Shown here: positions 1-64,000 of the stretch, one piece after another | Layout of the letters: each line of letters starts with the position of its first letter | How positions within the stretch are numbered: the stretch's first letter is position 1 | IMG/VR virus record: IMGVR_UViG_3300033121_001553 | Span: 96,001-160,000 of that record | Source of the DNA: a virus | Lineage: Duplodnaviria > Caudoviricetes | DNA: 64,000 bases | Direction: 5' to 3' (one strand) | Position numbers and translations under genes: made by a program | The notes under the pieces: generated by a model | Told to the model about the DNA's origin: nothing | Databases searched by the model: none | Seen by the model: only the letters and a program-made list of their open reading frames with translations

Positions 1-921
1 TCGTATCCAATGTCTACCGTGAGTGTTTATAGACGCGTACGGTATGTTAGTTCTAAATGGAATATCGTGCGGACCAGTGACAGAACCAGAGATGCTCTGA
101 TCATCGTACGAAGGTTCAAGCGGATGAGACGCGTAAGCAACACGCATGTACAGTCGATCACCGTTTGGCGAGAATGTACTACCCGTTACTGGTATTGGGA
201 AGATCCTTATCTTTTTACCTATTATCTCATAAGAATATTGTGATCTGCGAACTTTAAACGCTTCTTCAAGCATGCCTCTACGTAGCACGTCTTCAAACAC
301 GGGCAACACGTAAAAAACTGTTGAATTTACGTACGATTCGTAGTTAAAGTTTGTAGCAAGAAAGTTTGTAACGTTACTTGCGTTGAGCAAGAACTGCTGA
401 GCTGCTATTGGATTAAAGTGAAATACATCTATGATACGAAGCTTTGTCTGCGAACCGCTTGGCTGAGATCTGAATATATTTGTTCCAGACGTTGCATGCA
501 CAAGCGTATCGTAGATATCGTAGTCTTGCTGTCCGGACACTAGCGGTATGTAACCGAGTATTGGATCTTGCGAGCCCATAACGTTCGCCATCTCAGCGTA
601 CGGCTCAGCAAGCCTCATGAGATACTCGAGACTGCTGCGAGGGTATTTGTTCGTCATGTCGCCGATGCTCGCTGTAGACACGCCAAGCATGTTCACAAGT
701 TGACTTGCAATTTGTGTTTGCTGTACAAGCATGCTGTACTTTAGCGTTGCTTCTTCAAAACACGCCCATATGTCTTTCTTCGACAGTTCAACGCTAAGTG
801 TGCTATCGCCAAGCTTCAGCTTCACAAAACGTACCATGGCGTCAGCTTCAGTCTGAAATGCTGTTTCTGCGTCGAAGACACCAAACGGCGTTGGATTTAT
901 TGTTTGAGCGAACGTTGCCAT
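1..921 (-). CDS. Putative neck/head-tail connector protein (T4 gp13-like), runs off the window edge
   Basis: Open frame from ATG 921 (MATFAQTINPTPFG...VKLKLGDSTLSVELSKKDIWACFEEA...) to base 1; KLG...VEL motif typical of gp13-like neck proteins; not in the ORF track because truncated. Confidence 0.65.
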   Translation of the reverse strand, partial: MATFAQTINPTPFGVFDAETAFQTEADAMVRFVKLKLGDSTLSVELSKKDIWACFEEATLKYSMLVQQTQIASQLVNMLGVSTASIGDMTNKYPRSSLEYLMRLAEPYAEMANVMGSQDPILGYIPLVSGQQDYDIYDTLVHATSGTNIFRSQPSGSQTKLRIIDVFHFNPIAAQQFLLNASNVTNFLATNFNYESYVNSTVFYVLPVFEDVLRRGMLEEAFKVRRSQYSYEIIGKKIRIFPIPVTGSTFSPNGDRLYMRVAYASHPLEPSYDDQSISGSVTGPHDIPFRTNIPYASINTHGRHWIR

Positions 922-937
922 GCGATGATAAATAGCG

Positions 938-2830
938 TTACTTGGCGTAAACGATTACAGGTTCAGTCCTTACGCTACCGTTTCCCATGTACGAGTTACC
1001 GCAGCTCATCTGCTCAGTGCATACATGCTTGAAGCCAACATCAACTGCAACTGCATTGAATACATCAACGTATTTGTTTGAAACGTTAATAACAAACTTC
1101 GAGTTCTGCTTCAAACAAACGTATGCATGTTTTACTGTTGGTTTTACGTAACTGTCTACCCATTCCTGATATGTTTTGTATTCTTTCCATGCTTGTCCCG
1201 ACTCATCATAATATTTCTCAGTATCATAATATGGCGGCGATGTGAATACAAAGTCAACTGTGCATTCGTCAGGCGCCATCATCTCAGATCCGGCTGAGTT
1301 TACGATGATATCATAACCATACGATACGATATCTGACGCTAGGTTAGACAAGTCAGCTCTGGTACGTGATGATGGCTCGTTGCATATATAAGTTCCGCCG
1401 CTAAAGGACGATACAAAACCGAGCATTCTAGCACCGAACCCAGCAGAAGGATCCCAGACAGTTGGACACTCAGCTGTACAATATTTGCTGTAGATATACT
1501 TTGCGTAAGCGGGTCTAAACCAAGATACAGCTTTCTTTTGAACACGCAAACCGCGTCTAATAGATCTAAATGTTATGTCAATGCCTTGAGCTAGCCTTGT
1601 ACGTAGTACATTCGACAGTACGGCATCATTATAAAATGCGTTGCGTGGCCCATCGTTCGTATCCCAGTACGAACGAAATATCGACTGAAGATATGCTGAA
1701 CCTGCGTGCGAGTATTTTCTTGAGTTAGCAAGCTCAGCGATAGCATCAGCAAAACTTGAAGAACGAACTGGGTATATCCAACCGTAAGTCTCTGCGTATT
1801 GCTTGAGATAATTCAGCAGACATCTTACTGTCTGCTGCTGAACTTCGACAACTCTGCTGGCTCGCGTTATTATCGTTTCATCGTCAATAGACGGCAATCC
1901 ATTCTTGATAATCTTACCATCAATAACGGCTGTATGAGCACATGCTAGAAGTGATTCGTAGTCTCTGCATGAACACCAGTCTGCGTCTTCTGCTATTTTG
2001 ATGTATGAACTACGCGTTAGAACAGCTGAACGTAGTTTACGTAGATCTGAAGTCATTGTAGCGAGTTGTTGATCAGACCAGTCAGATGATCTGTCTAGTC
2101 CGTGCCAGTACGTTCCGTCAAATTCGACGTAGGTTCCACAGCTAAGTTGCATGTCGTAGCATGCCGTCATTCCATCTATTGATTTCCACACTTGCGTTTT
2201 TGCGTCATGATCAAATGTTTTTACGTGTTCAATGAACTTCTGCTCAGCAAAAGATGACTTCGATACTTCTCTCGTCATGTTCGATGACGAAATTTTTGAT
2301 CGCATCTCATCAGTAAATATTTTGCTCATAAGCTCAGAACGTTGCTCAGCCCATACACGTTTTCTAATACTGCTTAGTTTCTCATGCATTCCGTCAGCAT
2401 TCAACGAAGCAGATACTGCTGCTGCATGTCTACGGCTAACATCAGGATTACTAAATGCATCTTTTACGCTCAACGCTATTTTTCGTTTGATTTCATCACC
2501 ATGTTCAGCGTACGCAGCTCTGATCGCTGCATTTCTTTTTTTTACAGCATCTTGTGATGGCGAACATCTTGTTGCTGTTGACTTATTATTATGACCAGTT
2601 ATATATCTGTTGTAGCAGTACTTTGTTTTGTGCCACAATGTTAGCTGACCGCAGCCGCATAGACACTCTGGCTGACGTAGAGAAAAATATTTCTCAACAT
2701 ATCCCTTGATACCCTCAATGTCAGAATGACATTTTGAGATGTGAATACCAAGCTGCTTACGTGTCGCTATAACGGCATCGCATGCTGCACAACGATGCGT
2801 AAAGCTAATGTTACCGTAGCTATCTACCAT
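938..2830 (-). CDS. Zn-finger/homing-endonuclease-like domains fused to an amino (N4C/N6A) DNA methyltransferase
   Basis: CAAC..H..H and CLCGCG Zn motifs; YVEFDGTYWHG (Vsr/DUF559-like nuclease); C-terminal WDPSAGFGAR (SAM binding) and FTSPPYY (catalytic motif IV). Confidence 0.7.
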   Translation of the reverse strand: MVDSYGNISFTHRCAACDAVIATRKQLGIHISKCHSDIEGIKGYVEKYFSLRQPECLCGCGQLTLWHKTKYCYNRYITGHNNKSTATRCSPSQDAVKKRNAAIRAAYAEHGDEIKRKIALSVKDAFSNPDVSRRHAAAVSASLNADGMHEKLSSIRKRVWAEQRSELMSKIFTDEMRSKISSSNMTREVSKSSFAEQKFIEHVKTFDHDAKTQVWKSIDGMTACYDMQLSCGTYVEFDGTYWHGLDRSSDWSDQQLATMTSDLRKLRSAVLTRSSYIKIAEDADWCSCRDYESLLACAHTAVIDGKIIKNGLPSIDDETIITRASRVVEVQQQTVRCLLNYLKQYAETYGWIYPVRSSSFADAIAELANSRKYSHAGSAYLQSIFRSYWDTNDGPRNAFYNDAVLSNVLRTRLAQGIDITFRSIRRGLRVQKKAVSWFRPAYAKYIYSKYCTAECPTVWDPSAGFGARMLGFVSSFSGGTYICNEPSSRTRADLSNLASDIVSYGYDIIVNSAGSEMMAPDECTVDFVFTSPPYYDTEKYYDESGQAWKEYKTYQEWVDSYVKPTVKHAYVCLKQNSKFVINVSNKYVDVFNAVAVDVGFKHVCTEQMSCGNSYMGNGSVRTEPVIVYAK

Positions 2831-2837
2831 TTTGCAT

Positions 2838-2923: not shown

Positions 2924-4813
2924 TAAGATGATGTTCATATTCAGAACCGTTACAGTTCCGAAGTAGTCAGAACGGATCATCTTCTTGCCGTACCGCGTCA
3001 TCACGCCCTTGGTTGGGGTGAAGTCCTGCGGATTGTAGATTGTCTGCGTCATGATGAGTGGCACATATGGCGCGTAGACATATCCCGTCTCAAGATAGTT
3101 ACCGCCCTTGTAGCCAACAAGGATGCGGTTCCTTGGGAAATAAGGATCCTTATAGACGGTAAATCTATTGTTCAGTGTACCGATTGCCTCTGCGCCCATC
3201 TGGAATGGAGAAGCTACCTGACCGTTGCCGTCAATCGACAGCTTGGCCTTGTACGCGATTGCGCTCTCGATAATCGTGCAAACATCTGGCGATGTCACGA
3301 TAAAGTTTGCGCTACCACGCAGGGTCTTACGGTGGATGGTGTTCGCAACGTCGTTGATTGTCTCAACAAGCGTCTGCGCCCACTCCATCGTGTTGCCCGT
3401 GAACTGTGGTCCGATCGACAAGCTCGTTGAGAGATCTCTCTGAGCACCGGTCAGCTTGTTCACGAACACGCCTGGAGCACGGCTCCAGTACAGGTTTGCA
3501 CCATTTGCCTGCGTTAGCAGATCCTGGAGGATCTCGCGGTCAATCTCAAGTGCGATCTGCTCCGACAGTACCTGCGTCAGCTCGACCTCTGCGTCGATGT
3601 TGTGGTACGCGTTCAGATCCTGCGCGAGCTCTGGAGACCAGCGAGCGCGCAGCTTGCGTGATGTTGCAGTGATTGCAATCGACTCAACCTTGATGTTGAC
3701 CTCTGCGATCACTGGGCTTGATGACGAGCCAAAGTCAGACTCGTAGCTTGGCAGCGTCAGAGTCGAACCTGTCGATGAATCGACCTGGAGCTTGTCGCTT
3801 ACGACACCAGACATCTTCATCGAGCCGCCGAGCACAGGTACTGAGCCTGCATTCGAGAGTCTCACGACGAACTGGATGTGGTCACCATTCAGCGCGTCTG
3901 GCGTAAACGTGGTGCCGTTGAAGTTACCACGCTTGTTCAGCTTGCGCAGGTTAAGCACACCAGTACCTGCCTGGAAGCTCTCGCCCCATGCCGTTGCACC
4001 GTTTGCCGTCGAGAACGCTGTGATTGCGAGCTGATCAACCTGGAGCAAGTCGACGTTTGCAATCGCGCTTGTGATCTGCGCAGTTGGAACGTGCACGAAG
4101 CACACGTCAAACGTACCAGCCTCGATACCAGCCTCAACGTCTGGATCGAAGTTGCAGAAGCGAGCGTTCGAGCCAGAGAAGTCAGTCGATGATGCGACTG
4201 TACCAGCTGATGTCCATGCGCCGTTCACTCCCGTGAATGCACCGACCTTCGTCTCAGCCGAAGCCGAAACAGAGTTGCTACCGCTGTGAACCTTCGAGAA
4301 GCCTGAGCCAACGAGGTCGTACATACCACCAGCCGCAAGCGAGCCCGACTGAACTCCCTTACCTGGCGGGTTGTTGTACAGCGACTGTCCAACGGTGTAA
4401 GTCTCATTTGCTGATGATGATGACAAGCTCACGCCTGCATCGCCACCAACGTTTGAGCCGTAGCCATAGTCGATGTAGAACACAAGACCAGATGGCAGCG
4501 ACATTGGCTGAACCGAAACGAGCTCGTTGGCAACGAGGCCACCGAAAACTCTACGTACGATTGGGAACGCAATGTTCGCGAAACCTGCGATCTGACCCGA
4601 CGTTGTAACGTTACCGCCACCTGTCGAGAGCGCGTTTGCCTCCTTTATGAGGCCTACTGCCTGGTTCTCAAGCAGACGGGCCATATGGCTACGGCGCTGT
4701 CCCTCGAGACCCTTGAGCAAGCCCGTCTTCGTCCACTTCTTGACGATGCGTGCTTCCTCTGCACTTCTATTGGGATCCTGGATCCCTTCCATAATATCCT
4801 GATATGTCAACAT
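2924..4813 (-). CDS. gp23: Major capsid protein (T4 gp23-like), 629 aa, TTA stop
   Basis: PIVRRVFGGLVANELVSVQPMSLPSGLVFY, RKLRARWSPELAQDLNAYH, EIDREI, YAPYVPL, GVMTRYG; own ATG 4813; ends ...NMNII-TTA. Confidence 0.93.
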
Positions 4814-4843
4814 TTTTACTTTCCAATCTCCTAAGTTGTGAGC

Positions 4844-6295
4844 TAACTTGATACCAGCCAAAATGCTCCAGCGATCTAGCTCAGCAGACTCTGACAGAGT
4901 CTCCTTCGATGCTGTTGCTGCTCCGCTTTTCACCGTGCGTGATGACGACCCGAGCAGCTGACCGCCGCTCTTGCCTTCTGTCATCGGCTTCTTGTCAGAC
5001 ATTGCCGTTGAAACTGCTGTCTCGTAAACGAGGCGTAGCTCCTTCAACGAGCTTGCTTCATTGACACGCTTGCACGCTGATGCTTTCTGTGCCTTGGTCA
5101 GATTGTCATTCGTGACGATCTTATTCGCGACCTTTGTCTTGGCTAGCATGAGATTCGTCTCACGCAGTTGATTGTAAAGTTGACGTACTTTACGCTCTGC
5201 GACGATAGAGGTATTAAGCTCTCTCATACGGCGTCGCGCCGGTGATGCTGACTCACGCATACGAAGCGCTCTGCGGAAGCGCGACTCGCGTGTTAGCATC
5301 TCGTCATCTTCTTCGGCCTCTTCAGCCATTGGCTCTTCGCCCTCAAGACCCTCAGTCGTAACGTCAGCGTCAAGCCATGGATCACCCATGTCTTCTCCAC
5401 CGCCGAAGTCATCAACTGGCATCTTCTTTGACTCTGCAATTCTTGCACGTACTCTCATAATCTCACGACGAAGCATACGCTCATCAACCTCAACGATTGG
5501 ATCAGCGTCTTTTCTGCCTCTGCTTTCGCCCTGCTGCGTTGGCTTCTTCTCTTCTTCGCCAGCAGCTGCACCGCCAAGAATCGAGTCTAGTTCTGCGTCT
5601 GATGTATCATCACCAGAGCCGTCGGAAGGAGCAGCAGCATCAACATCAGCCTGTTCCTCGTCGCCCTCAGGTGCGCCACCTTCTTCATCTGCAACAATTG
5701 ATACACCGAGCGCTCCAAGATCAAGATCATCTGGCAGCGCCTCGCCGCTAAGCTCGAGTGTAACTTTACCTTCCGACATACGCTTCTTCATTTTTATTTC
5801 CTCTGATGTTTCCTTATTCTTGATCTTTGAGAATGCATCTTCCAGCGCCTCTATTAGAGGCTTTTTCTCCGCTTCACTTGAAGAACTCTCTTTTACGCTT
5901 CTATACATATCGTCGAGACGAGCGACTGCACGCTCACTCATACGAAAAATTGCGCCTACACGCTTTATTTTTGCTGTACGCTTTACGAACTCATCAACAT
6001 TTTCGCAAAGCGACGTAACTTCTGCCTTAAGCTTGTTGAATGATTCATTCTTTGAATCATCATCCGTTAGCACATTTTCTTCGTCTTTATCATCTTCAGT
6101 TGACTCGACGAATTCTTTTTCCATATCATCGCCGCACTCAGTGACGTCAGCTTCATCCGACTCCAACAGAGTCTTTTCAATGAAACTACGTATAGCTGGC
6201 AACGCCGACTCTACGATCTCTTTCTTAGCGCTGTCTTCTGCAAGCTCACGCAATTTTTGCACGTCTGCAAGCGCTTCTTTATAAAGATTCGACAT
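4844..6295 (-). CDS. Prohead scaffolding protein, 483 aa, TTA stop
   Basis: Acidic coiled-coil between protease and MCP; LRETNLMLAK segment; ends RWSILAGIK-TTA, a typical scaffold C-terminus; fused to MCP in the ORF track only because TTA was read as Leu. Confidence 0.8.
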
Positions 6296-6299: not shown

Positions 6300-6914
6300 T
6301 AAGTCCTGATTTGTAACGTTGAATTTAACGTATTCTGTGCCGTCAGGCGTGCCTGGACGTGAGCCCTTCTTCAACGCGCGTGGAGGAGCGGCAATCGCGT
6401 CTGTGATCTGAGCGCTAGTGCTACTTGGGTTCGCAGTGTTCTCGGAACGTGGCTTTGCGTGCAGCTCATTACGTAGCTCTTCTGGAGTTGCGGGCTGCGA
6501 CAGTGGATCAACACCAACTGTTGGCGAACCAAGATTTGGTGACCACGCTGTTGATGTGCTACCGACGCCACCCGCTGCTTCATCAAGCGCATTAATGTCT
6601 GGAGCTGCGCCATAACCAGGCTTGTACTCAGACTCAAAGTTCCAGTAGGCCTTCGCATCATCAACATCGCCCTCTGTTACAAGTAGCTTGCTGATCATTG
6701 CATCGCCCTGACCGTTAATGTACTTTGGTGGCAGCTGACCTTTGTGAATAGGCGAAGCAGTGTATAGTCCTTTTAGTACATTTTCATTTGATAGTGACTT
6801 TGGTGGACCAGAGAATGACTCTTCGTACGCTTTAGTGTCAGGAGTCGTTACAGTCGAACCGTATCGATTCCCGTCTATCTGCGTTTTTGGATCTGGATCT
6901 ATTGGTTTTGGCAT
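6300..6914 (-). CDS. Hypothetical head-module protein, TTA stop
   Basis: AGGTGA SD; first in-frame TTA seen is 4 nt before the scaffold ATG. Confidence 0.65.
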
Positions 6915-6953: not shown

Positions 6954-7208
6954 TAAAAGCAGATCATTAACTGCTTTTACAGCCGCTTTCTTTGCTTCTC
7001 TAATCTTCTGCAGCGCTTCAATAATCTTTGCTTCCTTGACGCGAAGATCTTTCATATGATTAACCTTCTTCTCAAGCGTATCTGCAAGTTCATCTGCATC
7101 TACTTCTTTTGCTTTGACGCTGCTTGGCTTCTTTGCCTTCTCATTCTTTTTCTCGTTCAGCACTTGCTCAACAAGCTTTTCAAGCATCTCACTCGTAAGT
7201 TTCTTCAT
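6954..7208 (-). CDS. Small charged prohead-associated protein, TTA stop
   Basis: GAGG SD; MKKLTSEMLEKLVEQVL N-terminus; the Leu-read extension HFVVYLFVSR runs over the next promoter and SD. Confidence 0.7.
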
Positions 7209-8286: not shown

Positions 8287-9144
8287 TAACTTGCTCTCTA
8301 TCTCATTTATCAATTTTTCATAAAGCAAATGTTCGATCACCGCTGAGTCTTCTATCTCGTTGATCGTTTTGCCTCTCGCGAATGTTTCATTTTTTACGAT
8401 ATCAAGTCTTTCGTTTGTCATGATATCTCTGGGATTGTGAGATACGTAATTGTCTATCGCGTTGACAAGTCTATCTCGCGTTTCTGCGAAAAGTTTTTTT
8501 ACGTCTTCTTTGTTACCGTTCACGCAGCTCAAAGCATAAGTACGCACCAAACTCCGCTGTGCGTCTGTCAGTTCACCGTCGTATCGCTCGTTGATCTTGT
8601 TTGTCATTACCTTGATCAGCATACGCAGCGTGCCAGGCGACTCTGCTGGAATCGTTACTGTCTTTTCATCATCACTAGATCTCGTAAGGTGCTCACGCAG
8701 CGTATTCTCGTACTGCACAACCCTACCGAAGTCAGCTGCTGCTGGATTTCTCCAGTCATTTATAAGTGACTGTATCGTCGCATAAAGCTTGTAGTTCTCA
8801 AACTGCTGATCCCAGAAATATGGAAAATTTAGATGAGATATCGACTTAATAAGTGCTGTCTTCTCTTGCTCAAGCAGCGTAATATCATAGTTTGCAGATG
8901 CTTTTCGAGCTTCTGTTAGAACGGCTGCTGCAGCAACTTCTGACATTTTTTCATTCACGAGTGCCTTGAAGAGCCGAAATTCTCTGTAGATTTCAGTTCC
9001 TGGCTTGTAATGACGCTTCAAAATTTTAAGAGCACGACGTGCAACATCGTTGTTATTCTCAACGACAGACTTTGATATAACTCTTACCAGCAGCTCATAC
9101 GTTAGTCCAACGTTTCGCTTTTTATTGTGCTTTGCCATTCTCAT
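8287..9144 (-). CDS. Conserved head-module protein between portal and protease, TTA stop
   Basis: KHNKKRNVGLTYELLVR N-terminus; TTA followed by TACC-ATG of the protease gene. Confidence 0.75.
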
Positions 9145-13420: not shown

Positions 13421-13864
13421 TAACGTAAAATCATACGTTGCTGTACGAATCACATACGCAATTCTGCGTGGATTATGTTGCATCGCAGAAATCGTTTGCA
13501 GAGTATCCTCAGCGCCAACAAACTTGATCTTCAAGTCTTCATCGGCTATCTTCTTGTACTCACGTTTGATTCGTGCTACCTCTGAGTCTATAACGCTATC
13601 AGCTTCATGTATTGCACGCTCTTTAAGCATGTAGCGTTCATTTACGCTGCTGTAATTAACGACTGCAGTGTATGTAATAACAAGTCTTTCACCGACTATT
13701 TTTGACTTCACGGATGGACCGACAAGATTAGCAGACGTTGACGGTCTTGTGAAAGTTGTGTCGATTACTTGTCCAAGCGCATACACATCGTATCCAGCGT
13801 TAGCGCGTACTGTAGCTTTTTTCTTATCAGGCATGTCAATATGTATCTCCAAATGATGCGCCAC
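13421..13864 (-). CDS. Hypothetical protein, TTA stop
   Basis: Fills operon gap; ends ATYDFT-TTA-TCA-TAA. Confidence 0.65.
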
Positions 13865-18247: not shown

Positions 18248-18820
18248 TCACTTACAATATGTTTTTTTAGCAACAGCAGCCATTACAACAGCGTCTGACT
18301 CATCATAAGCCCACGAATATGGTTTTTCTGTCTTCTTATTTATCCAGTCATCGACTTTGCTGGGATAGCGTTTCAAGTTATCGTCGAATACGTCTTGTTT
18401 CTTATTCTTTGATCCTTTAATATTTGGATAACCACATTTTTTTCTGCCATGCGACACTGACACATGACAAAACTTGTAGTCGTATGATGAGTGCACCTCT
18501 GTAAACAGCTTATGCAGACCGTACGTTATCATACCATTGAAAAACTGCAGCTTGGATATTGTACCTGCCGATGTTCTACCTTGCGCGTACGCTTTTGCTG
18601 GTTCTTCAATGCACAATGATAGTTTTAGCCTACGCGTTGATAGATTCATCAGTGAAAGCATGAACTCTGCAATGACACGATCAGCAAAATTTACAAGTTC
18701 CTCATCTTTACTTCTGCTCACGTGAGTTGTCACAAGCTTATCATCGCAAAAGAAAGCAATGCCAACTGTCGTTGTTGATATGTCAAACCCGGCGTAAACC
18801 GTCGCGTATTCCGCATTCAT
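18248..18820 (-). CDS. RuvC-like Holliday junction resolvase
   Basis: GFDISTTTVG, CIEEP, YDESDAVVMA acidic catalytic pattern. Confidence 0.75.
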   Translation of the reverse strand: MNAEYATVYAGFDISTTTVGIAFFCDDKLVTTHVSRSKDEELVNFADRVIAEFMLSLMNLSTRRLKLSLCIEEPAKAYAQGRTSAGTISKLQFFNGMITYGLHKLFTEVHSSYDYKFCHVSVSHGRKKCGYPNIKGSKNKKQDVFDDNLKRYPSKVDDWINKKTEKPYSWAYDESDAVVMAAVAKKTYCK

Positions 18821-19196
18821 TCTTCGCGATCATACCATCTGTCGCAAAAATGTACACTGCATTGTTCCAACGACACCAAGCTTCTGCGAACTTTGACTTT
18901 TTGATAACACCAACTTTTTTCAATCTTGAAGTTGGTTTAATTTCAACAATGTAAAGTTTACCTGCTTTCGTTAGAACAGCAACGTCTGGCCAGTACACTC
19001 TAGTTCTTTTACCTACTCTGTACGGTATACCAAACGGTTCGTAAACGTACGCTGCGATACAGTCATTTGAGTCAAGTAGCTGCATGTAATCGTATTCTAG
19101 CTTAGAACGTGTTAGACACTCAAATCCAACAAGCTTCCTTGACACATGCTTACATCTTTTTGGCGTTCTATTGCTTTTTTTTCTCTTTGCTGCCAT
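18795..19196 (-). CDS. TnsA-like endonuclease / head-completion nuclease (gp4-like), TTA stop
   Basis: RSKLE, YEPFGIPY, YWPD, VEIKP motifs; starts at TTATG coupling. Confidence 0.75.
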
Positions 19197-21517
19197 AAGT
19201 AATCTATTCTTGGCTTAAACACAATTGACTGACTGAATCGTTTTTCTATCGGTTGCGCAAGATGAGCTCTGATCACGACATTGAAATTCGAGTCATGAAA
19301 ATTGATTCGCGATATCTTCACGATGGGCTCATCTTGAGCTGCGTATCTGTAGCTAGATGTACCATAGACAAAGTTTGTATTTGAAGATGTGTTGTAATGT
19401 CCCGCAGGAGCAATAGCTGTTAGCTTTACAACGTTAACATCACGTGAACCTTCAAATTCCATACCATAGCTATCATTACCAAATGGGTAAAGATGCGGTG
19501 ACTTTACGAATACTATACCTTGCTCGTAAAAGATATTACCAACGCTGTTCCAAGCTGATGCTGATGTTACGCAGTTCGCTCTGTAAAGATTACCGTTACC
19601 ATCGTCACGTAGCAGAACGCTTAGCGCTCCGTTCGTTCCAGAAAGGCTGCTGCTAAGCTTGAACGTACCAGGCGTTATCTTGTCACCGTAGTACAAATTG
19701 CTAATGCTAAAAACAGTGATTTGATTTGAATTACTATCTTTTGTTCTGTTGAATATCGTTAGAGCGCTACCTGGAGCATTTTTGATGTCTCCTGTTTCTG
19801 GCGCAACACCACCTATCACCTTGTCTATGCTAGATGTTGCTTGTATAAATCTTCCAGCAAGCAATGAAGAAGTAGATATCAAATCACGAAGATTTATCCA
19901 GCTGCCATCTGATGTGTCTGTGGAGTCACGGTAGTGGTTGTTGGCAGCTGTTACGTACGTTGATATAACACCAAGATTCGGTATGTAGTTACCGTCATCG
20001 CATGGTAGAATCAAAAGATTTCTCGCGATGAAACTCCCGCTTTGGTACAGAAGATCGTTAGCTGGAGCTGCAGCTGTTGTAGTTGAAATCTCATGAGCTA
20101 GCATGTTGTATGCTAGCGGATATCGTTTTGAACCAAAGTCATACAGAAAATTTTCGATATTTATTAGATGTCCGCCAACAGAAAACGCCAGCGATGTGTT
20201 AAAAGGTGTTTCTGTAGATCCGTCTGACGCGTAGAAAGGCGTTTCGAGAATGCCGCCGTAACCATCGACTGCGCTTCTCGTTGGACTCGTTGGAATGAAA
20301 TAAGGTGGAAGATAGAAGGCAACATCACGCATGTCGCTGCTACCAGTGCACGTCATTTCTTCAATTTCACGATTTGTTACGTATCGTTTGATGATCTTCA
20401 AATCATGAATTTCAGCACGCAGTCTGTGTCTAAAGTTGAAATTTGCGGGCTCTTCTGTCGCTGGCGTTGTAGTGACATTTATAAGTCCCTCACGCGTTGA
20501 TGGATTTGTCGCAAACCACAGTGCTTGAGCATTTCCACCTGTATTATTACCCTCATAAAAATTTCCAACAAACAACGCGTTTGAACTCAAACTGTTCAAC
20601 GATGACGATGGAACAACGAATGTTCCTCTTAGCGTACCATCTACGTAAAAACTACCAGTTCCACGATCACGTGAATTCGTACCCCATCGTACAAGCACAT
20701 GATGCCACGCGTTAAGTTTCAAACAGTCATCTGAGTAAAATGCTAGATCACGTGGATACGCTGCCGCAACGCTTGGGTTTAGCTCGCTTGGTCTCTTTTC
20801 TGCTGTACGTTCTAGCTGAAGTGCTACGCGAAACGTATTTGCTCTACCGTACTGATCACGTCCAGATCCAGTTATAAGAGACAAACAGTAGCTAGACGAT
20901 ACATGCACAATAGCGCCAGCAGTAATTGGCACAGATGAATCATCAGCTGAATTTGGTTTTATGTACGTTTCTATTGTGAATGCACCAGTGACGGTGTACT
21001 CGCTACCGGTCATTGGGTAGATAAGAACAGACGCAGTTGGTACATTCGAGCAAGAAAAGAAATTAAGACAGTTGTAATTCGTATAAGCATACTGCGCTGC
21101 ATTCGAGTATAGTCTCTGTTCACGCAGCAAGCTATTCTTTACAAGTGACTTAACAGCAAACTTATCATTGTACACAAATCCTGGTACAATTCTATCAATC
21201 AACTGCGTTGCTGAATTTCTTCTGCTTTGGTTACGACGATTTACTTCGCTCATATAAGCAGACATTACGCTTGCGTTACTGCTGCCAACACGACCGAGCA
21301 AAGACGCCTTCTTCAGTATATCGTCTATCGACTGATCGTTAGCTGCGCTATCACCGAGGCTCGACGATAGAGAAATGTCTTTCTCTATCGTCGAGCTTCT
21401 ACCGAGCACAGTCAGAGAGCCAGTTACACCAGTTGAGCTGCTAACGTAGACGCGCTTTGGATTTACGCGCAGCGCGTAGATCTCAACATCGTTTTGCGTC
21501 AAACGTTGCGTTGTCAT
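19196..21517 (-). CDS. Virion structural protein with LamG-like domain, TTA stop
   Basis: FTIETYIKP, WHHVLVRW, EIHDLKI LamG-like strands; C-terminal domain paralogous to 21530-22720, ending PRIDY-TTA. Confidence 0.75.
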
Positions 21518-36808: not shown

Positions 36809-37141
36809 TAACTTCGCTGTCTCTACAGCCTTAACTTCGCCGTCTTTACTGCCTTCTTCAGTCGCTGTCTCTACAGCCTTCTTCAGGCTCTTCTTTGCCT
36901 TACGCTCCGACTTAAGCTTCTTGTTATTCGCAAGAATCTCATCAGAGAAATTCTTGGCCTTCTTACGAAGATCTCTAAGCGATGCTCTTGCTTCAACGCC
37001 AGCCGAAACAACGCCAGCATGATTCTTTGCGACATTATTTTGAAACTCAGTCGCTGTTGCTGCGCTCATGAGATCATTCAGCAGCGTTAGCAGCGAGGTG
37101 GCGACAGTAACTTCAACGGTTGTATTCTCTACATCAGACAT
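36809..37141 (-). CDS. Histone H1-like (Hc1-like) basic protein, TTA stop
   Basis: GVVSAGVEARASLRDLRKKA; Lys-rich; KAVETA repeat; GGAG SD; TTA precedes the terminator. Confidence 0.55.
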
Positions 37142-45026: not shown

Positions 45027-45943
45027 AAATTTACGTTCTTGCGCCAAAAGAAGATTGGATCTGTGATAGATTCGTAAAAGAGTGGTCGCAAGATAATACT
45101 GATATCACAACCGACAACATTCATGATGCAGATATCATATGGCTGCTTGCTGACTGGTGCTGGAATCAAATCAGTCCACACATACTTAGATCGAAAATCG
45201 TCGTAGCGACAGTTCATCATCTTGTTCCATCAAAGATGACATATCGAGCACGTAAAGAATTTGCTGAACGTGATGAATACATTGATCTATACCACGTACC
45301 GAATGTTCATACTAGACTTCAAATACTTGAGCTTACAGAAAAATCGAAATGCACAATTCCATTTTGGGCAAATCAAAAAATCTGGAAACGCACTAACGAT
45401 AAAAAGACACTTAGAAAAAAGTATGGAATTGATGAAGATGCGTACATAGTCGGTTCATTTCAACGAGATACAGAAGGTAGCGATCTCGTAACTCCAAAAT
45501 ATGAAAAAGGTCCGGACCTGTTGGCTGACTATCTTGAGAAGATAAAGTCAGATAATCTTCATGTGCTTCTTAGCGGTTGGAGAAGGCAATACATCATAAA
45601 GCGCATCGAAGATGCGGGAATAAACTACACATATATTCAGCTTCCACAGCAGCATGTGATCAATGAACTTTATCAAACGCTTGACCTGTATCCTGTCACT
45701 GCAAGATACGAAGGTGGACCACAGTCACTTGTAGAATGCGGAATGCTTAATGTTCCTGTCGTATCAAGAGACGTAGGCATTGCAAGCGTTGTGCTGCCAA
45801 AAGAAGCAATTAACGATGATGTTTCGCTTGCTACACCAGCCATACCAAATGTAGCTGAGCTTTTGCTTCCGCTTGGATACGACAAATTCAGAGAGATGTT
45901 TTACAATCTTTACTCAAGTACTACACGATATGAAAAGATTTTA
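45023..45943 (+). CDS. Glycosyltransferase family 4-like, TTA stop
   Basis: KGPD, ARYEGGPQSLVECG, VVSRDVG; TTA removes 144 nt of overlap with the next gene. Confidence 0.8.
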
Positions 45944-46172
45944 TCTTCAAAGAGACGCAGATCACTCAGGCGTATCTGGCACCGGGAAAGTAGCAGAAGG
46001 CTGTCAGTTCGATACAAAGTGGTGTGCGTTGATATGGCTTACAGAGAAGTCATCCATGTGTTTCTACCCAGACATAGAAACGCTTGAGCATATTCATGGT
46101 CACAGCGGAAAAACAAAGATTGTCTGGATAGATGATGAATCTTCTAACGTGGTGATTCAAAATGATAATTTA
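45930..46172 (+). CDS. Small conserved phage protein, TTA stop
   Basis: FYLQRDADHSGVSGTGKVAEG...HIHGHSGKTKIVW. Confidence 0.65.
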
Positions 46173-47109: not shown

Positions 47110-47540
47110 AAACAGCAAAAGTACCAGTTACAGACTACTACGGTTATCCACCAAGCAAGTTCGAAGGTCTTGTTGAAGATCTGATAGCGAAGAGGCTACA
47201 AGAGCTTGTCGAAGATGGAGTTACATTCGATGTAAACACGTCAGCCGTAATATCAAATCGTGAGTTGTGCAGCAGGGTTTATCTGATCATTCATGGCGTT
47301 ATAGAAGAATGCCTGCAGATCTGTAAGCTTGAGTCAACACGTGAATGCGTAGGTTACATCGTTCAGTCGTATTACAGCTCAATGCAAATAAACGATGCAT
47401 TTTATTTTGATAAATCAATAATAGAGCAACGTATTACAGTTGAAGATGTTCAAACTGCAGAGCTTAAAAAATTCGGTCCACTGTTTAGAGATGCTGACTT
47501 TGGAGTCGACATGATAAATGAGCTCAAGAGACGTAACTGA
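47106..47540 (+). CDS. Hypothetical protein
   Basis: ATGA-coupled 144-aa ORF. Confidence 0.6.
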   Translation: MKTAKVPVTDYYGYPPSKFEGLVEDLIAKRLQELVEDGVTFDVNTSAVISNRELCSRVYLIIHGVIEECLQICKLESTRECVGYIVQSYYSSMQINDAFYFDKSIIEQRITVEDVQTAELKKFGPLFRDADFGVDMINELKRRN

Positions 47541-54447: not shown

Positions 54448-55055
54448 GCCCATATAACGAATCTTACTACACTCAAAAAAACTACATTAGCTATCTTGAA
54501 CGACGAGAACGTTACACAAGAATGATAAATGAGCTCAACGATAGACTAATAAAGCCACTTGCGCTCGATAAGTTCTTGAAGCATGGTACGATCGTCGACT
54601 ATGGCTGCGGCGTTGGATTTTCAACAAAAGCTCTTATTGAAATCGGTTACAAGGCTATTGGCTACGATCCTTCTGTGTGGGCTGTGGAATGGGGTAAAAA
54701 AAATCTTGGTCTCAAGGGTACAGAGATAACAGATAAAAAAAATGAGATTCCTGGTCATTGTTCACTTATGCTTTCATTCGACGTATTTGAGCACATGTCC
54801 AGCGACGAAATAGCTGATACATTGGCGTACTTTTCGCCGATATACTTGCTTGTTCGCATACCTCTTGCAAATACCGACAACGGAGATTATGTTCTGAGTG
54901 TATCAGAAAATGATCCAACGCATATTATGCGTCTAACGCGTAGCTCGTGGAATCTTCTGCTACGTGAATGTAGATACGAATGGCTCTACGACGTAAATCT
55001 TACAATGTTTTACGATAGCGACGGTGTAATGTGTTCAATGTACAGAAAATATTTA
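54444..55055 (+). CDS. Class I SAM methyltransferase, TTA stop
   Basis: VDYGCGVG, GYDPS, FDVFEHM. Confidence 0.8.
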
Positions 55056-56980: not shown

Positions 56981-57139
56981 TGCTTTCCCAAAGACCTTAA
57001 TGCGCTTATCGCAAAAGCAAAAGAAGTTGGCCATAGCGCAAAATTGCTAAGTGCAATAAATGAACGTAATCTTGAAATTGTAAAACCTGAGCATCGTGAC
57101 TGGGAACGTATGCTTGGTAGAGCAGTCACAAAAAAATAA
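56846..57139 (+). CDS. ugd: C-terminal split intein + UGDH C-extein
   Basis: AGGTG SD; MITKKKIEKI...VYNIEV...VVHN|CFPKDLNAL (UGDH catalytic Cys motif). Confidence 0.9.
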   Translation: MITKKKIEKILIENYVGDVYNIEVVSNDDANDDLYWICNGIVVHNCFPKDLNALIAKAKEVGHSAKLLSAINERNLEIVKPEHRDWERMLGRAVTKK

Positions 57140-57508: not shown

Positions 57509-57620
57509 TTTAGCTACCTCTTATATTTATGGTCATGCATTAGGTTCATTCAAGAGGCCCTCCAAATTTTTGCGCCGTAAAGTTGTGTATAACTTGTTGT
57601 TGTGAATTTTGGAGGATAAG

Positions 57621-57932
57621 ATGAAAAAGTATGAATATTTGTATGCGTATGCTAGAAATTTGATTAGAGCAGAACTACGTGGTATTGAATTGACTGCAAA
57701 GTCAATAAAACGACGTAAAGCAAAAAAAGATTTGTTGCTCTCATGCCGTGCTAGGAATTTGATTCTTGCTCGAGCATTTTTGCTTGGTAAGAATTATTTG
57801 CAAGCAGAACGTAAAGCAAAAATCTCTCCAGTCCCTGAGGAAATATCAAAAACGATTAGAAGCTATTTCCCGAATGCTGTAATGTGTCCAACAAGCGAAG
57901 AGATACGGCAATGGATGAAAAGCTGTATATTA
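57621..57932 (+). CDS. Small basic phage protein, TTA stop
   Basis: GGAGG SD; ARNLILARAFLLGKNYLQAE; TTA removes 135 nt of overlap with the Pth gene. Confidence 0.65.
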
Positions 57933-58225
57933 TCGTTCGTAAGGATCTGCCATACGGCGCGCAGTTTGCTCAAGCGATACACGCTGTTGCAGAATTTGCA
58001 ATTGAGCATAACGATCTTTATCGCGAATGGCATTCGACAACAAATACAGTTGTTGTGCTTAGCGTAAAAGATGAAACAGAATTGTTGAAAATTCAACAGC
58101 TTTCTATTGAAAATGGAATCGCGCATTCTCTTTTTAGAGAACCAGACTACTCTGGTTCTGCGACTTCAATTGCGTTGAAATCAAAGAAAATAAAATTTCT
58201 AAACAGACTCAAGCTCGCAAATTTA
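57911..58225 (+). CDS. Peptidyl-tRNA hydrolase 2-like protein, TTA-TGA stop
   Basis: KLYIIVRKDL..GAQFAQAIHA...VVVL...FREPD...TSIAL. Confidence 0.75.
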
Positions 58226-58236
58226 TGAGTCTGATA

Positions 58237-58307
58237 GCGTCATTTGCGTAGTGGCAACGCAGTTGATTCTAAATCGACTTACGCGGGTTCGATTCCCGCA
58301 TGACGCA
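58237..58307 (+). tRNA. tRNA with CUA anticodon (amber suppressor)
   Basis: Acceptor GCGTCAT/ATGACGC, D stem GCGT/ACGC with AGTGG, anticodon stem GTTGA/TCGAC with loop TT-CTA-AA, T arm GCGGG-TTCGATT-CCCGC, discriminator A, no encoded CCA. Confidence 0.9.
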
Positions 58308-58309
58308 CG

Positions 58310-58768: not shown

Positions 58769-58923
58769 TGAATGTTCATGTTCACTGCAACGACTGCGGT
58801 CGTGCTGTTGAACAACGCGATACGTGGCGTTGTTTGTGGTGTTATCGTACGATCTGCGCGTATTGCTATATTTTTCACAGTACAGAAATGCATGGTGACA
58901 AATACATAAAACGCGATAAATTA
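58765..58923 (+). CDS. Small Cys-rich Zn-finger protein, TTA stop
   Basis: CNDC..CLWC..CAYC..H; in-frame TTA at 58921. Confidence 0.5.
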
Positions 58924-62419: not shown

Positions 62420-62721
62420 TTTACGTATTTATCGCTCTACTTGTGATATTCGCCGTATGGGCATGCATTGCGAGTTATTTTTGTTACAAATTTGCAAAAA
62501 AGATATTTGAATTTGAAACAGCGTTTGAAAATGCAATCGATATGATCGATGCAAGTGTATTGAAAATACAAGCGCTGTCTTCAAGACACGTGCTTTTTGA
62601 TGACTACGTCACACGAGAAGTTGTGCATGAAATAGCAGAAACGCAAAAATCGCTTATCGTGATAGCACGCTCTCTAACTACTATTAATGAAACGAGAAAC
62701 GATGAGCGAGAAACGAAATAA
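62416..62721 (+). CDS. Small membrane-anchored protein
   Basis: N-terminal TM helix then coiled coil. Confidence 0.6.
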   Translation: MIYVFIALLVIFAVWACIASYFCYKFAKKIFEFETAFENAIDMIDASVLKIQALSSRHVLFDDYVTREVVHEIAETQKSLIVIARSLTTINETRNDERETK

Positions 62722-63430
62722 AAAGATAGTAAGACGTAAGAGTACCGATCCAAACAAGTACTACTTTACGAAAGATACGCATGCTGCTGTTGTTGAATTC
62801 AAAGAATGTGATATCAACGACAAGAAGAGACGTAATCAAATTTACGTTGAGCGTATCAAACCAGCATTCGATAAGATCGCTGAAAATCTTATTAACATAC
62901 ACAAATTTACTGGTGCTTATATAACTCACGAAGAGTTGCAAGCCGGGTGTACTAATCATCTATTCGAAGCAATCTCGAAATTCAATCCAGAAAAATGTAC
63001 GAATGCGTTCAGTTACTTTAATGTTGTTGCGAAGCGTTGGCTAATCATCCAAACAAGAAATAGCAGTAAAGTACGCAGAGATGTAGCAATCGATGACTAC
63101 GAAAGACTTGTTACGAAAGATCGTAATAGCATCGAAGAAAAAAATACTATTCTTACACCAGAGCAAGAAATAAGAAAAAAGACATCTATTAATGATGTGA
63201 CATTGCTTCTAGAAGAGATGAAAAAACTCGCTGTCTCAGAAGATGAGATCAAATGCATCGAATCAATAAAGCTTTTGATCGATGCTCAAGGTGAACTAGA
63301 TCTGCAGAACAGAGCGGCTGCTGTTATATACATACGTGAGCTTATGGGCGTAAACCATAAAAACGCATTGTTTGTGATTTCAAAACTAAAGCATACGTAT
63401 AGAAAGCTTAGGGACGATATTCTATGCTAA
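62702..63430 (+). CDS. Late-transcription sigma-like factor (gp55-like)
   Basis: YYFT, KIAENLI, KFNPEK..NAFSYFNVVAKRWLI region-2 pattern. Confidence 0.7.
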   Translation: MSEKRNKKIVRRKSTDPNKYYFTKDTHAAVVEFKECDINDKKRRNQIYVERIKPAFDKIAENLINIHKFTGAYITHEELQAGCTNHLFEAISKFNPEKCTNAFSYFNVVAKRWLIIQTRNSSKVRRDVAIDDYERLVTKDRNSIEEKNTILTPEQEIRKKTSINDVTLLLEEMKKLAVSEDEIKCIESIKLLIDAQGELDLQNRAAAVIYIRELMGVNHKNALFVISKLKHTYRKLRDDILC

Positions 63431-63768
63431 ACGAAGAACAGATAACAGAACAGACGAAATCATTTGAAAAACTTCTCGAGGGCATCGAATCAATAAACGA
63501 TAGAAAACGTCAGCTGTGGGTTGAAATATATAAGAATGCGCTTCAAGACAGAGTGAACGCATACGCAATGTACGTGCAACTTGCAAAAATAGTACGCGAT
63601 GACTCACCAGAGCACGCAGTGCACGGTCAGAATATCGCAAGGTACATTGAACGTATGAGCAGAGCAAACGATCAGCTGACAAAACTCGCAGAGCTAATCG
63701 CAGAAGCAGAGAAAAAGTCAGAAGACATCGACGTTAGCCAGATATACAAGGATATGACGGACGACTTA
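63424..63768 (+). CDS. Hypothetical helical protein, TTA stop
   Basis: Ends MTDD-TTA overlapping the next ATG (TTATG). Confidence 0.65.
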
Positions 63769-64000
63769 TGTCAAGCCAACACGATATAGCAAGGCAGCTT
63801 GCAGAAGGTGTACCATACAGCGAAATTATCTCTCGTTTGACGAGAGATATTGCTGTTGGTGCTGTTCAAACGGCTTCTTTCACTCTCATAGAGCGTTACG
63901 TCGTACTTGAAGTTTTTTCAAATGCGAAGATGCTAACAGAGGAGAAATTCGATGAACTTGCAAAGCTATACGGCGTAAATGCTCCATCAGAAGACTTGCT
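63768..64000 (+). CDS. Hypothetical protein, truncated at window end
   Basis: ATG TCA AGC CAA... open to 64000. Confidence 0.6.
   Translation, partial: MSSQHDIARQLAEGVPYSEIISRLTRDIAVGAVQTASFTLIERYVVLEVFSNAKMLTEEKFDELAKLYGVNAPSEDL

What the first reader, a model, noticed from the sequence alone, without database searches (positions are those of the whole stretch)
1..64000. Novel phage genetic code: TTA (UUA, Leu) appears reassigned to STOP
Seen: despite an AT-leaning genome, TTA is missing inside genes. Hand counts gave 0/20 Leu codons in glf, 0/12 in the AT-rich endonuclease 56146-56868 and 0/19 in the sigma gene, while CTA, CTT and TTG are abundant. In-frame TTA occurs at or near the end of about 24 genes: 2924, 4844, 6300, 6954, 8287, 13421, 18795, 19196, 31134, 33474, 34624, 36327, 36809, 39927, 39955, 45941, 46170, 47534, 55053, 57137, 57930, 58223, 58921, 63766. 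Reading TTA as stop restores family-typical C-termini (MCP NMNII, scaffold LAGIK, PhoH LASKIL) and removes long overlaps and read-through into promoters, SDs and terminators. Established: UUA as stop is known from the Thraustochytrium mitochondrial code (table 23); recoded phages I know of reassign stop to sense (UAG, UGA), not sense to stop. Inference: the working stop set is UGA/UAA/UUA (all U-N-A, though UCA stays Ser). This could reflect an RF2-like factor with relaxed second-position reading plus a missing or destroyed tRNA-Leu(UAA), in the phage or its host.
Basis: partly seen in the sequence, partly recalled or inferred. Interest (0 to 1): 0.97.

Follow-up and report, generated by a model that had tools for sequence, protein, structure and literature searches.

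The report
Phage uses TTA as stop codon
A T4-like giant phage from wastewater never uses the leucine codon TTA inside its genes and instead ends about a third of them with it, a genetic-code change that I found published only for a few mitochondria and plastids.

Summary
The window lies in a 186.8-kb IMG/VR phage contig (T4-type capsid and portal, 43% GC). About 60,650 codons of the contig hold 4,587 Leu codons, and none inside a gene is TTA. TTA is common out of frame (996 and 442 in the two other frames).

All 24 listed sites are in-frame TTAs that close an ORF. At the capsid gene, 75 of 76 relatives whose locus reaches the gene's end stop at the same residue with TGA, TAA or TAG. This phage and its sister lineage have TTA there. 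Scaffold, PhoH and several other genes behave the same way. No homologue alignment runs more than 4 residues past a TTA.

The other 60 sense codons read as standard. TAG is almost unused, and the phage carries an amber-suppressor tRNA. Its 32 known tRNAs include Leu-UAG, Leu-GAG and Leu-CAA but no Leu-UAA. About 223 kb of phage sequence holds no release-factor gene.

The phage recurs in wastewater and sludge runs of seven studies, some of them RNA libraries, with the TTAs unchanged wherever differences were listed.

The mechanism is unresolved. Most likely the host lacks a UUA reader and has an RF2-type factor that reads UUA.

This scan had already noted TTA=stop in other, unrelated phages.

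The parts
2924..2926 (-). TTA ending the gp23-like major capsid gene (2927-4813)
   Evidence: Pfam Gp23, E 3e-79. 75 of 76 relatives whose locus reaches the gene's end stop at this residue (...MNII) with TGA/TAA/TAG. A hairpin terminator lies about 30 nt downstream.
4844..4846 (-). TTA ending the scaffold gene (4847-6295). A second in-frame TTA at 4832-4834 lies in the 30-nt spacer before the capsid ATG.
   Evidence: Homologues end ...LAGIK/LAGLK plus their own stop, with 0-2 residues left. Table 11 would give an 1127-aa scaffold-capsid fusion.
6300..6302 (-). TTA ending the 204-aa ORF 6303-6914
   Evidence: The next gene's ATG follows 5 nt later. The homologue alignment is only partial.
6954..6956 (-). 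TTA ending the 84-aa ORF 6957-7208
   Evidence: Homologues of 79-85 aa end 2-4 residues after the aligned part. A terminator-like hairpin at 6981-6952 spans the TTA.
8287..8289 (-). TTA ending the 285-aa ORF 8290-9144
   Evidence: Homologues end 0-5 residues from the TTA position. The next ATG lies 5 nt downstream.
13421..13423 (-). TTA ending the 147-aa ORF 13424-13864
   Evidence: The alignment to L014 ends exactly at the TTA and at the homologue's stop.
18795..18797 (-). TTA ending the 133-aa ORF 18798-19196
   Evidence: The G005 homologue has a similar length.
19196..19198 (-). TTA ending the 773-aa Laminin_G_3 protein gene (19199-21517). It overlaps the next start (TTATG).
   Evidence: Three homologues (G005, G004, G002) all end exactly here. 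Table 11 would add 28 codons.
31134..31136 (-). TTA ending the 312-aa ORF 31137-32072
   Evidence: Three homologues end 0-1 residue from this position.
33474..33476 (-). TTA ending the 372-aa ORF 33477-34592
   Evidence: The homologue comparison is inconclusive because the domains are repeated.
34624..34626 (-). TTA ending the PIN-PhoH gene (34627-36027)
   Evidence: Pfam PhoH and PIN_4. The G005 and G002 homologues end exactly here.
36327..36329 (-). TTA ending the 138-aa ORF 36330-36743 (followed directly by TGA)
36809..36811 (-). TTA ending the 110-aa ORF 36812-37141
   Evidence: Table 11 would add 28 codons and overlap the next gene.
39927..39929 (-). TTA ending the 327-aa ORF 39930-40910 (convergent with 38803-39957)
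   Evidence: Only weak homologues were found.
39955..39957 (+). TTA ending the 384-aa ORF 38803-39954
   Evidence: TTA=stop cuts the convergent overlap from 97 nt to 31 nt.
45941..45943 (+). TTA ending the glycosyltransferase gene 45023-45940
   Evidence: Pfam Glycos_transf_1. The 300-aa G005 homologue ends here, and the 48-codon table-11 extension matches nothing.
46170..46172 (+). TTA ending the doubtful 99-aa ORF 45873-46169
   Evidence: only. The gene itself is uncertain.
47534..47536 (-). TTA ending the 249-aa ORF 47537-48283 (weak CHAP match)
   Evidence: Table 11 would add 28 codons running into gene 47106-47540.
55053..55055 (+). TTA ending the 203-aa methyltransferase-like ORF 54444-55052
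   Evidence: The G004 homologue ends within 4 residues. Pfam Methyltransf_23 is recorded for strain copies.
57137..57139 (-). TTA ending the 123-aa ORF 57140-57508
57930..57932 (+). TTA ending the 107-aa basic ORF 57609-57929
   Evidence: Table 11 would add 45 codons across the Pth2 gene.
58223..58225 (+). TTA (followed by TGA) ending the PTH2-domain gene 57884-58222
   Evidence: Pfam PTH2, E 1e-11. Homologues also occur in standard-code relatives.
58237..58308 (+). tRNA with anticodon CUA (amber suppressor), 11 nt after the Pth2 gene
   Evidence: ARAGORN. Rfam tRNA, 62 bits. The anticodon loop TTCTAAA is canonical. Its amino-acid identity is unknown.
58921..58923 (+). TTA ending the 52-aa ORF 58765-58920
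   Evidence: Table 11 would add 85 codons.
63766..63768 (+). TTA ending the 114-aa ORF 63424-63765. It overlaps the next start (TTATG).
   Evidence: Homologue ends lie within a few residues. One alignment runs 4 residues past the TTA.

Best explanation
In this T4-like wastewater phage and its sister lineage, UUA (TTA) is not a leucine codon. It ends translation, so the working code is table 11 with four terminators in principle: UGA, UUA and UAA in use, and UAG almost abandoned. UAG is probably read through by the phage's own tRNA(CUA).

Shown:
- TTA is absent from sense positions.
- TTA sits exactly at homologues' stops.
- TTA swaps with TAA/TGA between sister phages.
- The phage tRNA set reads every Leu codon except UUA.

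Inferred mechanism: no tRNA in the infected cell reads UUA, and a class-I release factor of RF2 type recognises it. That would parallel the organelles in which a substituted RF2 residue (Ser204) goes with UUA termination.

I think the factor and the missing tRNA-Leu(UAA) most likely belong to the host (about 50%). The host is probably a G+C-rich bacterium in which UUA had first fallen out of use. A factor encoded in the unsequenced part of the phage is less likely (about 20%). AT mutation pressure in the 43%-GC phage would then have turned many stops into TTA.
For: 1. Absence of sense TTA. There are 0 TTA among 4,587 Leu codons under the TTA=stop model, and 9 against 996 and 442 (in frame against the two other frames) in ORF cores. 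TTA has 0 of about 90,000 aligned codon columns, while all 60 other sense codons align to their standard residue.

2. Position. At the capsid gene, 75 of 76 relatives whose locus reaches the gene's end stop at the same residue with a standard stop. Scaffold, PhoH, the 773-aa and 312-aa proteins and others end exactly where homologues end. By my reading of the table, about 24 of 31 TTA-ended genes with homologues agree within 5 residues. Unmatched table-11 extensions reach 144 codons.

3. Gene architecture. Overlap bases halve. TTATG stop-start overlaps occur in 10 of 67 genes, much as for TAATG and TGATG. The distance to the next in-frame stop after TTA is the same as after TGA or TAA.

4. Phylogeny. 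Only the sister phage L002/G001 shares the trait, and the two form one clade (SH-aLRT 97, branch lengths 0.33 and 0.39). Orthologous gene ends switch between TTA, TAA and TGA.

5. tRNAs. The 32 phage tRNAs include Leu-UAG, Leu-GAG and Leu-CAA but no Leu-UAA. For Gln, Glu and Lys both the U34 and the C34 isoacceptor are present. A Sup-CUA tRNA is also present.

6. Reality of the sequence. The phage is held by runs of 7 studies. In the four runs laid (X2, X6, X10, X17) its contigs differ from the window by under 1%, and no listed difference falls on a TTA stop. Patchy RNA contigs bridge the scaffold-capsid TTAs without A>T or A>C changes. Among 10 strains there are 184 coding SNPs, and none creates or removes a TTA. 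There are 7 TTG<->CTG changes but no CTA<->TTA change.

7. Precedent. An RF2 Ser204 substitution accompanies UUA=stop in labyrinthulean mitochondria and peDinoflagellate plastids (PMC12574857).

8. Host hint. The capsid gene has GC3 0.64 against a median of 0.39.
Against: There is no protein-level or ribosome-level evidence.

No release-factor gene was found in about 223 kb of this phage or in four relatives. The terminating agent is therefore unknown.

The contig is only about 52% complete by CheckV.

The host is unidentified. A standard host tRNA-Leu(UAA) would read through every TTA.

My search for RF2 genes with Ala or Gly in place of the SPF serine found only two, and both sit in DNA that uses TTA as sense.

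One short gene (63424-63768) has a homologue alignment running 4 residues past its TTA.

Some small TTA-ended ORFs may not be genes.
Confidence: 0.85

Rival explanations
1. UUA is an unassigned ('hungry') codon rather than a true stop. Nothing decodes it, ribosomes stall there, and the finished protein is freed without a codon-specific factor. Release could occur by peptidyl-tRNA drop-off followed by hydrolysis (the phage has a Pth2-type hydrolase), by ArfB-like rescue, or by slow near-cognate RF2 action.
For: No release factor was found in the phage. The phage tRNA set lacks a UUA reader. A PTH2-domain gene sits next to the suppressor tRNA. An RNA ligase of the tRNA-repair type is present.
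Against: A third of all genes, including the capsid and scaffold genes, end on TTA. These are presumably the most highly expressed genes, which argues for fast and clean release.

There are no extra back-up stops after TTA compared with TGA or TAA.

Pth2 homologues also occur in relatives that use TTA as Leu.

Stalling would invite tmRNA tagging and degradation.
Confidence: 0.1
2. TTA is an ordinary but very strongly avoided leucine codon (host codon bias, or bldA-like regulation). The TTAs near gene ends are translated, giving short C-terminal tails.
For: Some bacteria of 46-48% GC have only 1-2% TTA among Leu codons (L142, L175). TTA is the classic rare regulatory codon of G+C-rich actinomycetes (my own knowledge).
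Against: Bias does not place TTA at the exact codon where 75 relatives have a stop. It does not make TTA about 30 times denser in ORF tails than in cores. It does not explain the in-frame run-on into the next gene's ribosome-binding site and ATG, or the apparent 1127-aa scaffold-capsid fusion. No extension has any homologue.
Confidence: 0.03
3. Artefact or RNA-level correction. The TTAs could be assembly or base-calling errors. Alternatively, the mRNA could be edited from UUA to UAA or UGA.
For: None was found. Contig data cannot exclude partial editing.
Against: The same letters stand in independent assemblies from several studies, and in JGI and Logan contigs of at least 10 strains. A frame-blind error cannot remove TTA from one frame only. 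The RNA-library contigs of X17 show only A>G, C>G and G>A differences, none of them at TTA sites. The sister phage from another sample has the same pattern.
Confidence: 0.02

Closest known systems
NCBI translation table 23 (Thraustochytrium / Labyrinthulea mitochondria): UUA = stop
   Same: The same codon changes from Leu to stop and the rest of the code is standard. UUA is absent inside genes and present at gene ends.
   Different: That case is an organelle with a handful of genes and its own imported mtRF2a carrying a Ser204 substitution. This case is a >220-kb phage translated by bacterial ribosomes. No RF gene was found, and it is unknown whether phage or host supplies the factor.
peDinoflagellate plastids (UUA and UCA = stop; pRF2 Ser204 substituted) and Marsupiomonadales / Pseudoscourfieldia mitochondria (UUA and UUG = stop; altered mtRF1a)
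   Same: These are sense-to-stop changes of UUA in bacterial-type translation systems. A cognate tRNA is missing. The non-standard stop closes a large share of genes (PMC12574857).
   Different: Here UCA (956 core codons) and UUG (564) remain normal sense codons. There is no sign of RNA editing.
Stop-codon-recoded phages (TAG->Gln 'code 15', TGA->Trp 'code 4'; crAss-like, Lak and others)
   Same: This is also a phage with a non-standard code. It carries a suppressor tRNA(CUA) and a large tRNA set, and it avoids TAG as a terminator (bioRxiv 10.1101/2021.08.26.457843; PMC9523058).
   Different: The direction is opposite: a sense codon becomes a stop. No in-frame TAG or TGA interrupts any gene. 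The change affects genes all along the contig, on both strands, and the small early-type ORFs beyond its end, not one block.
Unassigned codons in bacteria (CGG in Mycoplasma capricolum; AGA/AUA in Micrococcus luteus; my own knowledge, not checked here)
   Same: A codon disappears from genes and its tRNA is lost. This is the likely first step here as well.
   Different: Those codons are simply unused. Here the codon has been taken up again and ends 33% of genes.

Membership tests
UUA = stop genetic code (table-23-like) | UUA absent from conserved sense positions | tested here: met
   TTA has 0 of about 90,000 aligned codon columns. There are 9 core TTAs in 41,103 codons, all at gene junctions.
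UUA = stop genetic code (table-23-like) | UUA falls where homologues have their stop codon | tested here: met
   Capsid: 75 of 76 relatives whose locus reaches the gene's end. Scaffold. PhoH and at least 10 further genes match exactly.
UUA = stop genetic code (table-23-like) | No tRNA able to read UUA | tested here: inconclusive
   The phage's 32 tRNAs have Leu-UAG, Leu-GAG and Leu-CAA but no Leu-UAA. The host's tRNA set is unknown, and about 40% of the phage is unsequenced.
UUA = stop genetic code (table-23-like) | Release factor (RF2 type) altered in its codon-reading region (Ser204 in organelles) | not testable with these tools
   About 223 kb of phage holds no RF gene. The host is unknown. 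The pattern search for [AG]PF RF2 variants gave no linked candidate.
Stop-to-sense recoded phages (code 15 / code 4) | In-frame TAG or TGA inside conserved genes | tested here: not met
   Table-11 ORFs are intact and densely packed. Reading TAG as sense does not improve the gene model.
Stop-to-sense recoded phages (code 15 / code 4) | Phage-encoded suppressor tRNA | tested here: met
   tRNA(CUA) at 58237-58308.
Rare-codon regulation (bldA/TTA type) | TTA rare but translated as Leu at homologous Leu positions | tested here: not met
   No TTA aligns to any residue.
T4-like phages (gp23 capsid, gp20 portal) | Gp23-family capsid protein and T4-type portal protein | tested here: met
   PF07068, E 3e-79. 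PF07230, E 2e-66. Cultured relatives are distant, under 50% identity.

The most novel reading that the evidence does not exclude
UUA = stop is the code of a free-living bacterial host lineage. That host would be G+C-rich, and earlier unchecked notes of this scan point to a group of myxobacteria with an altered release factor. Several unrelated phage lineages, this T4-like one included, would have adapted to it. That would be the first sense-to-stop genetic code in cellular, non-organellar life. Here it is combined with a phage-driven release of UAG from its stop role through a suppressor tRNA.
Probability: 0.45. Interest if true: 0.95.

Novelty: new variant of a known kind. Interest (0 to 1): 0.9.

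Why it matters
All phage code changes published so far, as far as my four literature searches reached, turn a stop into a sense codon. Sense-to-stop changes are described only for organelles.

A phage, and probably its host, that ends genes with UUA would show that a working bacterial translation system can add a terminator.

It would also give a tractable system for asking how release factors read the second codon base.

There is a practical cost today. Standard gene callers mis-annotate about a third of this phage's proteins. The public gene calls for its strains already show extended ends, such as the 121-aa call against 114 aa, and a table-11 reading gives the scaffold-capsid fusion.

Such a code is also a natural barrier to gene exchange, of the kind engineered into recoded organisms.

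Tried and rejected
1. +1 slip at a hungry UUA onto UAA or UAG. TTA is followed by A or G in only 27 of 67 cases, which is no enrichment.

2. RNA editing or sequencing artefact. See the rival explanations.

3. Phage-encoded release factor. Pfam RF-1 gave no hit and PCRF only an 18-bit hit in the contig. That hit lies in the portal gene and is spurious. There was none in relatives G002-G005. No GGQ-type small protein was found. An HMM of my own, built from 10 fetched RF1/RF2 proteins, found nothing in the contig plus about 36 kb of extension.

4. RF2 with Ala or Gly replacing the SPF serine (pattern HRLVRx[AG]PFD). In IMG/VR there were 3 chance hits. In metagenomes there were 48 hits, of which only 2 were real RF2 genes. 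Both lie in DNA with internal TTA codons. A Cys variant and other sequence contexts were not searched.

5. Host from glf homologues. The best identities were about 50%, scattered over Bacillota, Bacteroidota and Planctomycetota, so this was uninformative.

6. Host from cultured relatives. These are only distant: Microcystis and Flavobacterium phages and cyanophages.

7. Host from the Atlas. The carbamoyltransferase clusters are mostly viral, with one structural neighbour cluster from Myxococcota. This is a lead only.

8. Exact-word searches for the contig ends in IMG/VR found nothing.

9. Pfam scan of 40 clade-specific ORFs outside the window found no translation factor.

10. Walking along strain contigs. 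This gave 20 more tRNAs and about 36 kb of mostly small ORFs, but no factor.

11. Origin of the suppressor tRNA. It is not clearly derived from any other phage tRNA.

12. Myxobacterial genomes could not be reached with the scans left.

13. Literature. Four searches found no phage or bacterial TTA/UUA stop.

Full report
WHAT THE SEQUENCE IS

The window is bases 96,001-160,000 of a linear 186,819-bp IMG/VR virus record. It has 43% G+C, and CheckV rates it about 52% complete. It encodes a T4-type major capsid protein (PF07068, E 3e-79), a T4-type portal, a PIN-PhoH protein and a 20-kb block of sugar-modifying enzymes. Cultured relatives are remote.

The phage is real and widespread. Near-identical sequence is held by wastewater, activated-sludge and bioreactor runs of seven studies, eight of them RNA libraries. 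JGI and Logan assemblies of at least ten strains are 99.4-99.5% identical to it.

THE OBSERVATION

In 58 long standard-code ORFs of the window, TTA occurs in frame 30 times in 20,616 codons. CTA, CTT, TTG, CTG and CTC occur 144-495 times each. Most TTAs lie 1-48 codons before the standard stop. The rest lie before the likely true start, or in the 30-nt spacer of an apparent 1127-aa scaffold-capsid fusion, with one (58921) 85 codons before the standard stop.

Over the whole contig, the cores of 136 long ORFs (41,103 codons) hold 9 in-frame TTAs, against 996 and 442 in the other two frames. All 9 lie where two same-frame genes abut. The last 60 codons of these ORFs hold 50.

With TTA as stop the contig has 206 genes: 95 end in TGA, 67 in TTA, 38 in TAA and 6 in TAG. 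Overlapping bases fall from 2,498 to 1,232.

Relatives of equal G+C use TTA for about a fifth of their leucines. A sample of bacterial loci shows that plain bias can push TTA down to 1-2% of Leu codons, but not to zero and not to gene ends.

COMPARATIVE TESTS

I fetched 80 loci related through the capsid gene and three large standard-code relatives in full.

- Capsid. Of 76 relatives whose locus reaches the end of the gene, 75 stop at the same residue (...MNII, with small variations) using TGA, TAA or TAG. This phage and one relative, L002, have TTA at that codon. In L002 the standard frame would run 35 codons further.
- Scaffold. It ends ...LAGIK, exactly where homologues end.
- Other genes. 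I read the phage's TTA-ended genes through to the next standard stop and compared them with the relatives' ORFs. Thirty-one have homologues. About ten end exactly at the TTA and at the homologue's own stop, and by my reading of the table about 24 agree within five residues. No alignment continues into the extension, which can be up to 144 codons long. The one exception is a 4-residue overrun in a 114-aa gene.
- Codon table. A table inferred from these alignments gives the standard residue for all 60 other sense codons. TTA has no aligned column among about 90,000.

PHYLOGENY AND POPULATION DATA

In a capsid tree this phage and L002 are sisters (SH-aLRT 97) on long branches. The trait therefore arose once and is old.

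L002's 23-kb contig (47% G+C) has 9 TTA, 7 TAA and 4 TGA gene ends. Between orthologues the terminator switches among TTA, TAA and TGA.

Among ten strains, 193 variable sites over 21 kb include 150 synonymous and 34 non-synonymous changes. None makes or removes a TTA. TTG<->CTG changes occur seven times but CTA<->TTA never. The sample is small, so this is only supportive.

Contigs from four runs show no listed difference at any TTA stop. Patchy RNA-library contigs over the capsid and scaffold genes bridge the two spacer TTAs with no change that would make UAA or UGA. Contigs cannot exclude partial editing.

HOW TTA BEHAVES AS A TERMINATOR

The distance from a TTA stop to the next in-frame standard stop has the same distribution as after TGA or TAA, so there is no sign of selected back-up stops. 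TTATG stop-start overlaps are as common as TAATG or TGATG.

TTA stops occur all along the contig, on both strands, and in the small early-type ORFs beyond the contig end.

A hairpin terminator follows the capsid TTA by about 30 nt.

A +1 slip onto UAA or UAG is not supported.

TAG AND THE TRNAS

Only three credible genes end at TAG, and each has TTA or TAA 0-3 codons later. The window carries a canonical amber-suppressor tRNA (anticodon CUA) 11 nt after a PTH2-domain gene. Its amino-acid identity could not be inferred.

I walked along strain contigs beyond the right end of the record. This uncovered a second tRNA array of 20 genes, for a total of 32. The phage has Leu-UAG, Leu-GAG and Leu-CAA. 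These three are unusually short, mutually similar tRNAs, and together they read CUN and UUG. There is no Leu-UAA, although for Gln, Glu and Lys both the U34 and the C34 isoacceptor are present.

The phage's own decoding set is thus fitted to a code without UUA-Leu and with readable UAG.

MECHANISM

No release-factor homologue exists in the contig, in about 36 kb of extension, or in four relatives. Pfam scans of 40 clade-specific ORFs found an RNA ligase, methylases, a protease and similar genes, but nothing for termination.

The literature offers a precedent. In labyrinthulean mitochondria and peDinoflagellate plastids, UUA termination goes with substitution of a conserved serine (Ser204) of the RF2-type factor. 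In two green-algal lineages, UUA and UUG termination goes with an altered RF1-type factor (PMC12574857).

I confirmed the RF2 motif GVHRLVR[IK]SPFD on real bacterial genes. I then searched IMG/VR and JGI metagenomes for Ala or Gly variants of the SPF serine. I assumed, without confirming it, that this is the residue the paper numbers Ser204. Only two true RF2 genes turned up, both in DNA that uses TTA as sense. This route therefore failed.

The capsid gene has by far the highest third-position G+C (0.64 against a median of 0.39). This suggests a host whose tRNA pool favours G/C-ending codons. In such a host UUA would be the rarest codon and the easiest to lose.

My best reading is as follows. 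The host lacks a UUA reader and has an RF2-type factor that accepts UUA. The AT-richer phage, which brings tRNAs for most A-ending codons, must avoid UUA as sense and has drifted to using it as its second most common stop. I give this about 50%. A factor in the unsequenced part of the phage gets about 20%, and factor-independent release at an unassigned codon about 10-15%.

RELATION TO EARLIER NOTES OF THIS SCAN

Four other first-stage notes on this same contig report the same pattern.

Follow-up notes on other genomes report TTA=stop in a 435-kb soil megaphage, a 150-kb high-GC soil phage and others. Two of them claim the same code in a small group of myxobacteria with an altered release factor. 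Another describes a frameshift-gated short RF1-type factor in huge phages and myxobacteria.

These are unchecked AI notes. I could not reach myxobacterial genomes with the scans left, so I use them as leads only. By capsid sequence, none of those phages appears to be a close relative of this one.

VERDICT

Within the literature library searched, I found no phage or bacterial case of UUA or any sense codon becoming a stop. The nearest published parallels are organellar.

What remains open is who terminates at UUA, and whether the code belongs to the host.

Noticed in passing
L221:5571-5646, 5822-5895, 6512-6587 (strain contig beyond the right end of the record): The three phage tRNA-Leu genes (anticodons UAG, GAG, CAA) are only 74-76 nt long. 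They have a 3-bp D stem, a 6-bp anticodon stem and a short variable loop, and their D and T arms are nearly identical. They lack the long variable arm of bacterial tRNA-Leu. A 75-nt Leu-CAA also occurs in the standard-code relative G004.
   Followed up: partly
window 57884-58308: A PTH2-type peptidyl-tRNA hydrolase gene lies directly upstream of the amber-suppressor tRNA, away from the main tRNA arrays. Pth2 homologues also occur in relatives with the standard code.
   Followed up: partly
window 55031-57139: The UDP-glucose dehydrogenase gene looks split. ORF 55031-56149 carries the N-terminal and central domains. ORF 56837-57139 again hits the central domain (E 5e-5). Between them lies the 33%-GC ORF 56146-56868 (weak DUF7487 match). 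This could be a mobile insertion (homing-endonuclease or intron type) in the gene.
   Followed up: no
window 41483-63430: A block of roughly 20 kb, mostly on the plus strand, encodes sugar-modifying enzymes. It includes at least seven glycosyltransferases, UDP-galactopyranose mutase, a carbamoyltransferase, a radical-SAM enzyme, methyltransferases and UDP-glucose dehydrogenase.
   Followed up: partly
window 2927-4813: The capsid gene has GC3 0.64 and 54% G+C, against a gene median GC3 of 0.39. It is the strongest codon-bias outlier of the contig. This may reflect adaptation to a host that prefers G/C-ending codons.
   Followed up: partly
L288:7745-17385 (contig 27.7-37.4 kb, outside the window): Eight ORFs of 305-381 aa and one of 136 aa lie in a row on one strand. 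The eight long ones have no Pfam family above threshold, and none of the nine has a homologue in the three large relatives. A papain-family protease gene adjoins them.
   Followed up: no
L294:1-15200 and L298:1-20393 (beyond the right end of the record): Beyond the tRNA array lie about 25 kb of tightly packed 50-130-aa ORFs in two divergent blocks (early-region style). Reading TTA as stop fills gaps that the public gene calls leave empty.
   Followed up: partly
L246:826-1899 and L254:3623-4750 (metagenome contigs): Two bacterial RF2 genes carry APF instead of the near-universal SPF codon-reading motif, yet their neighbourhoods use TTA as an ordinary codon.
   Followed up: partly
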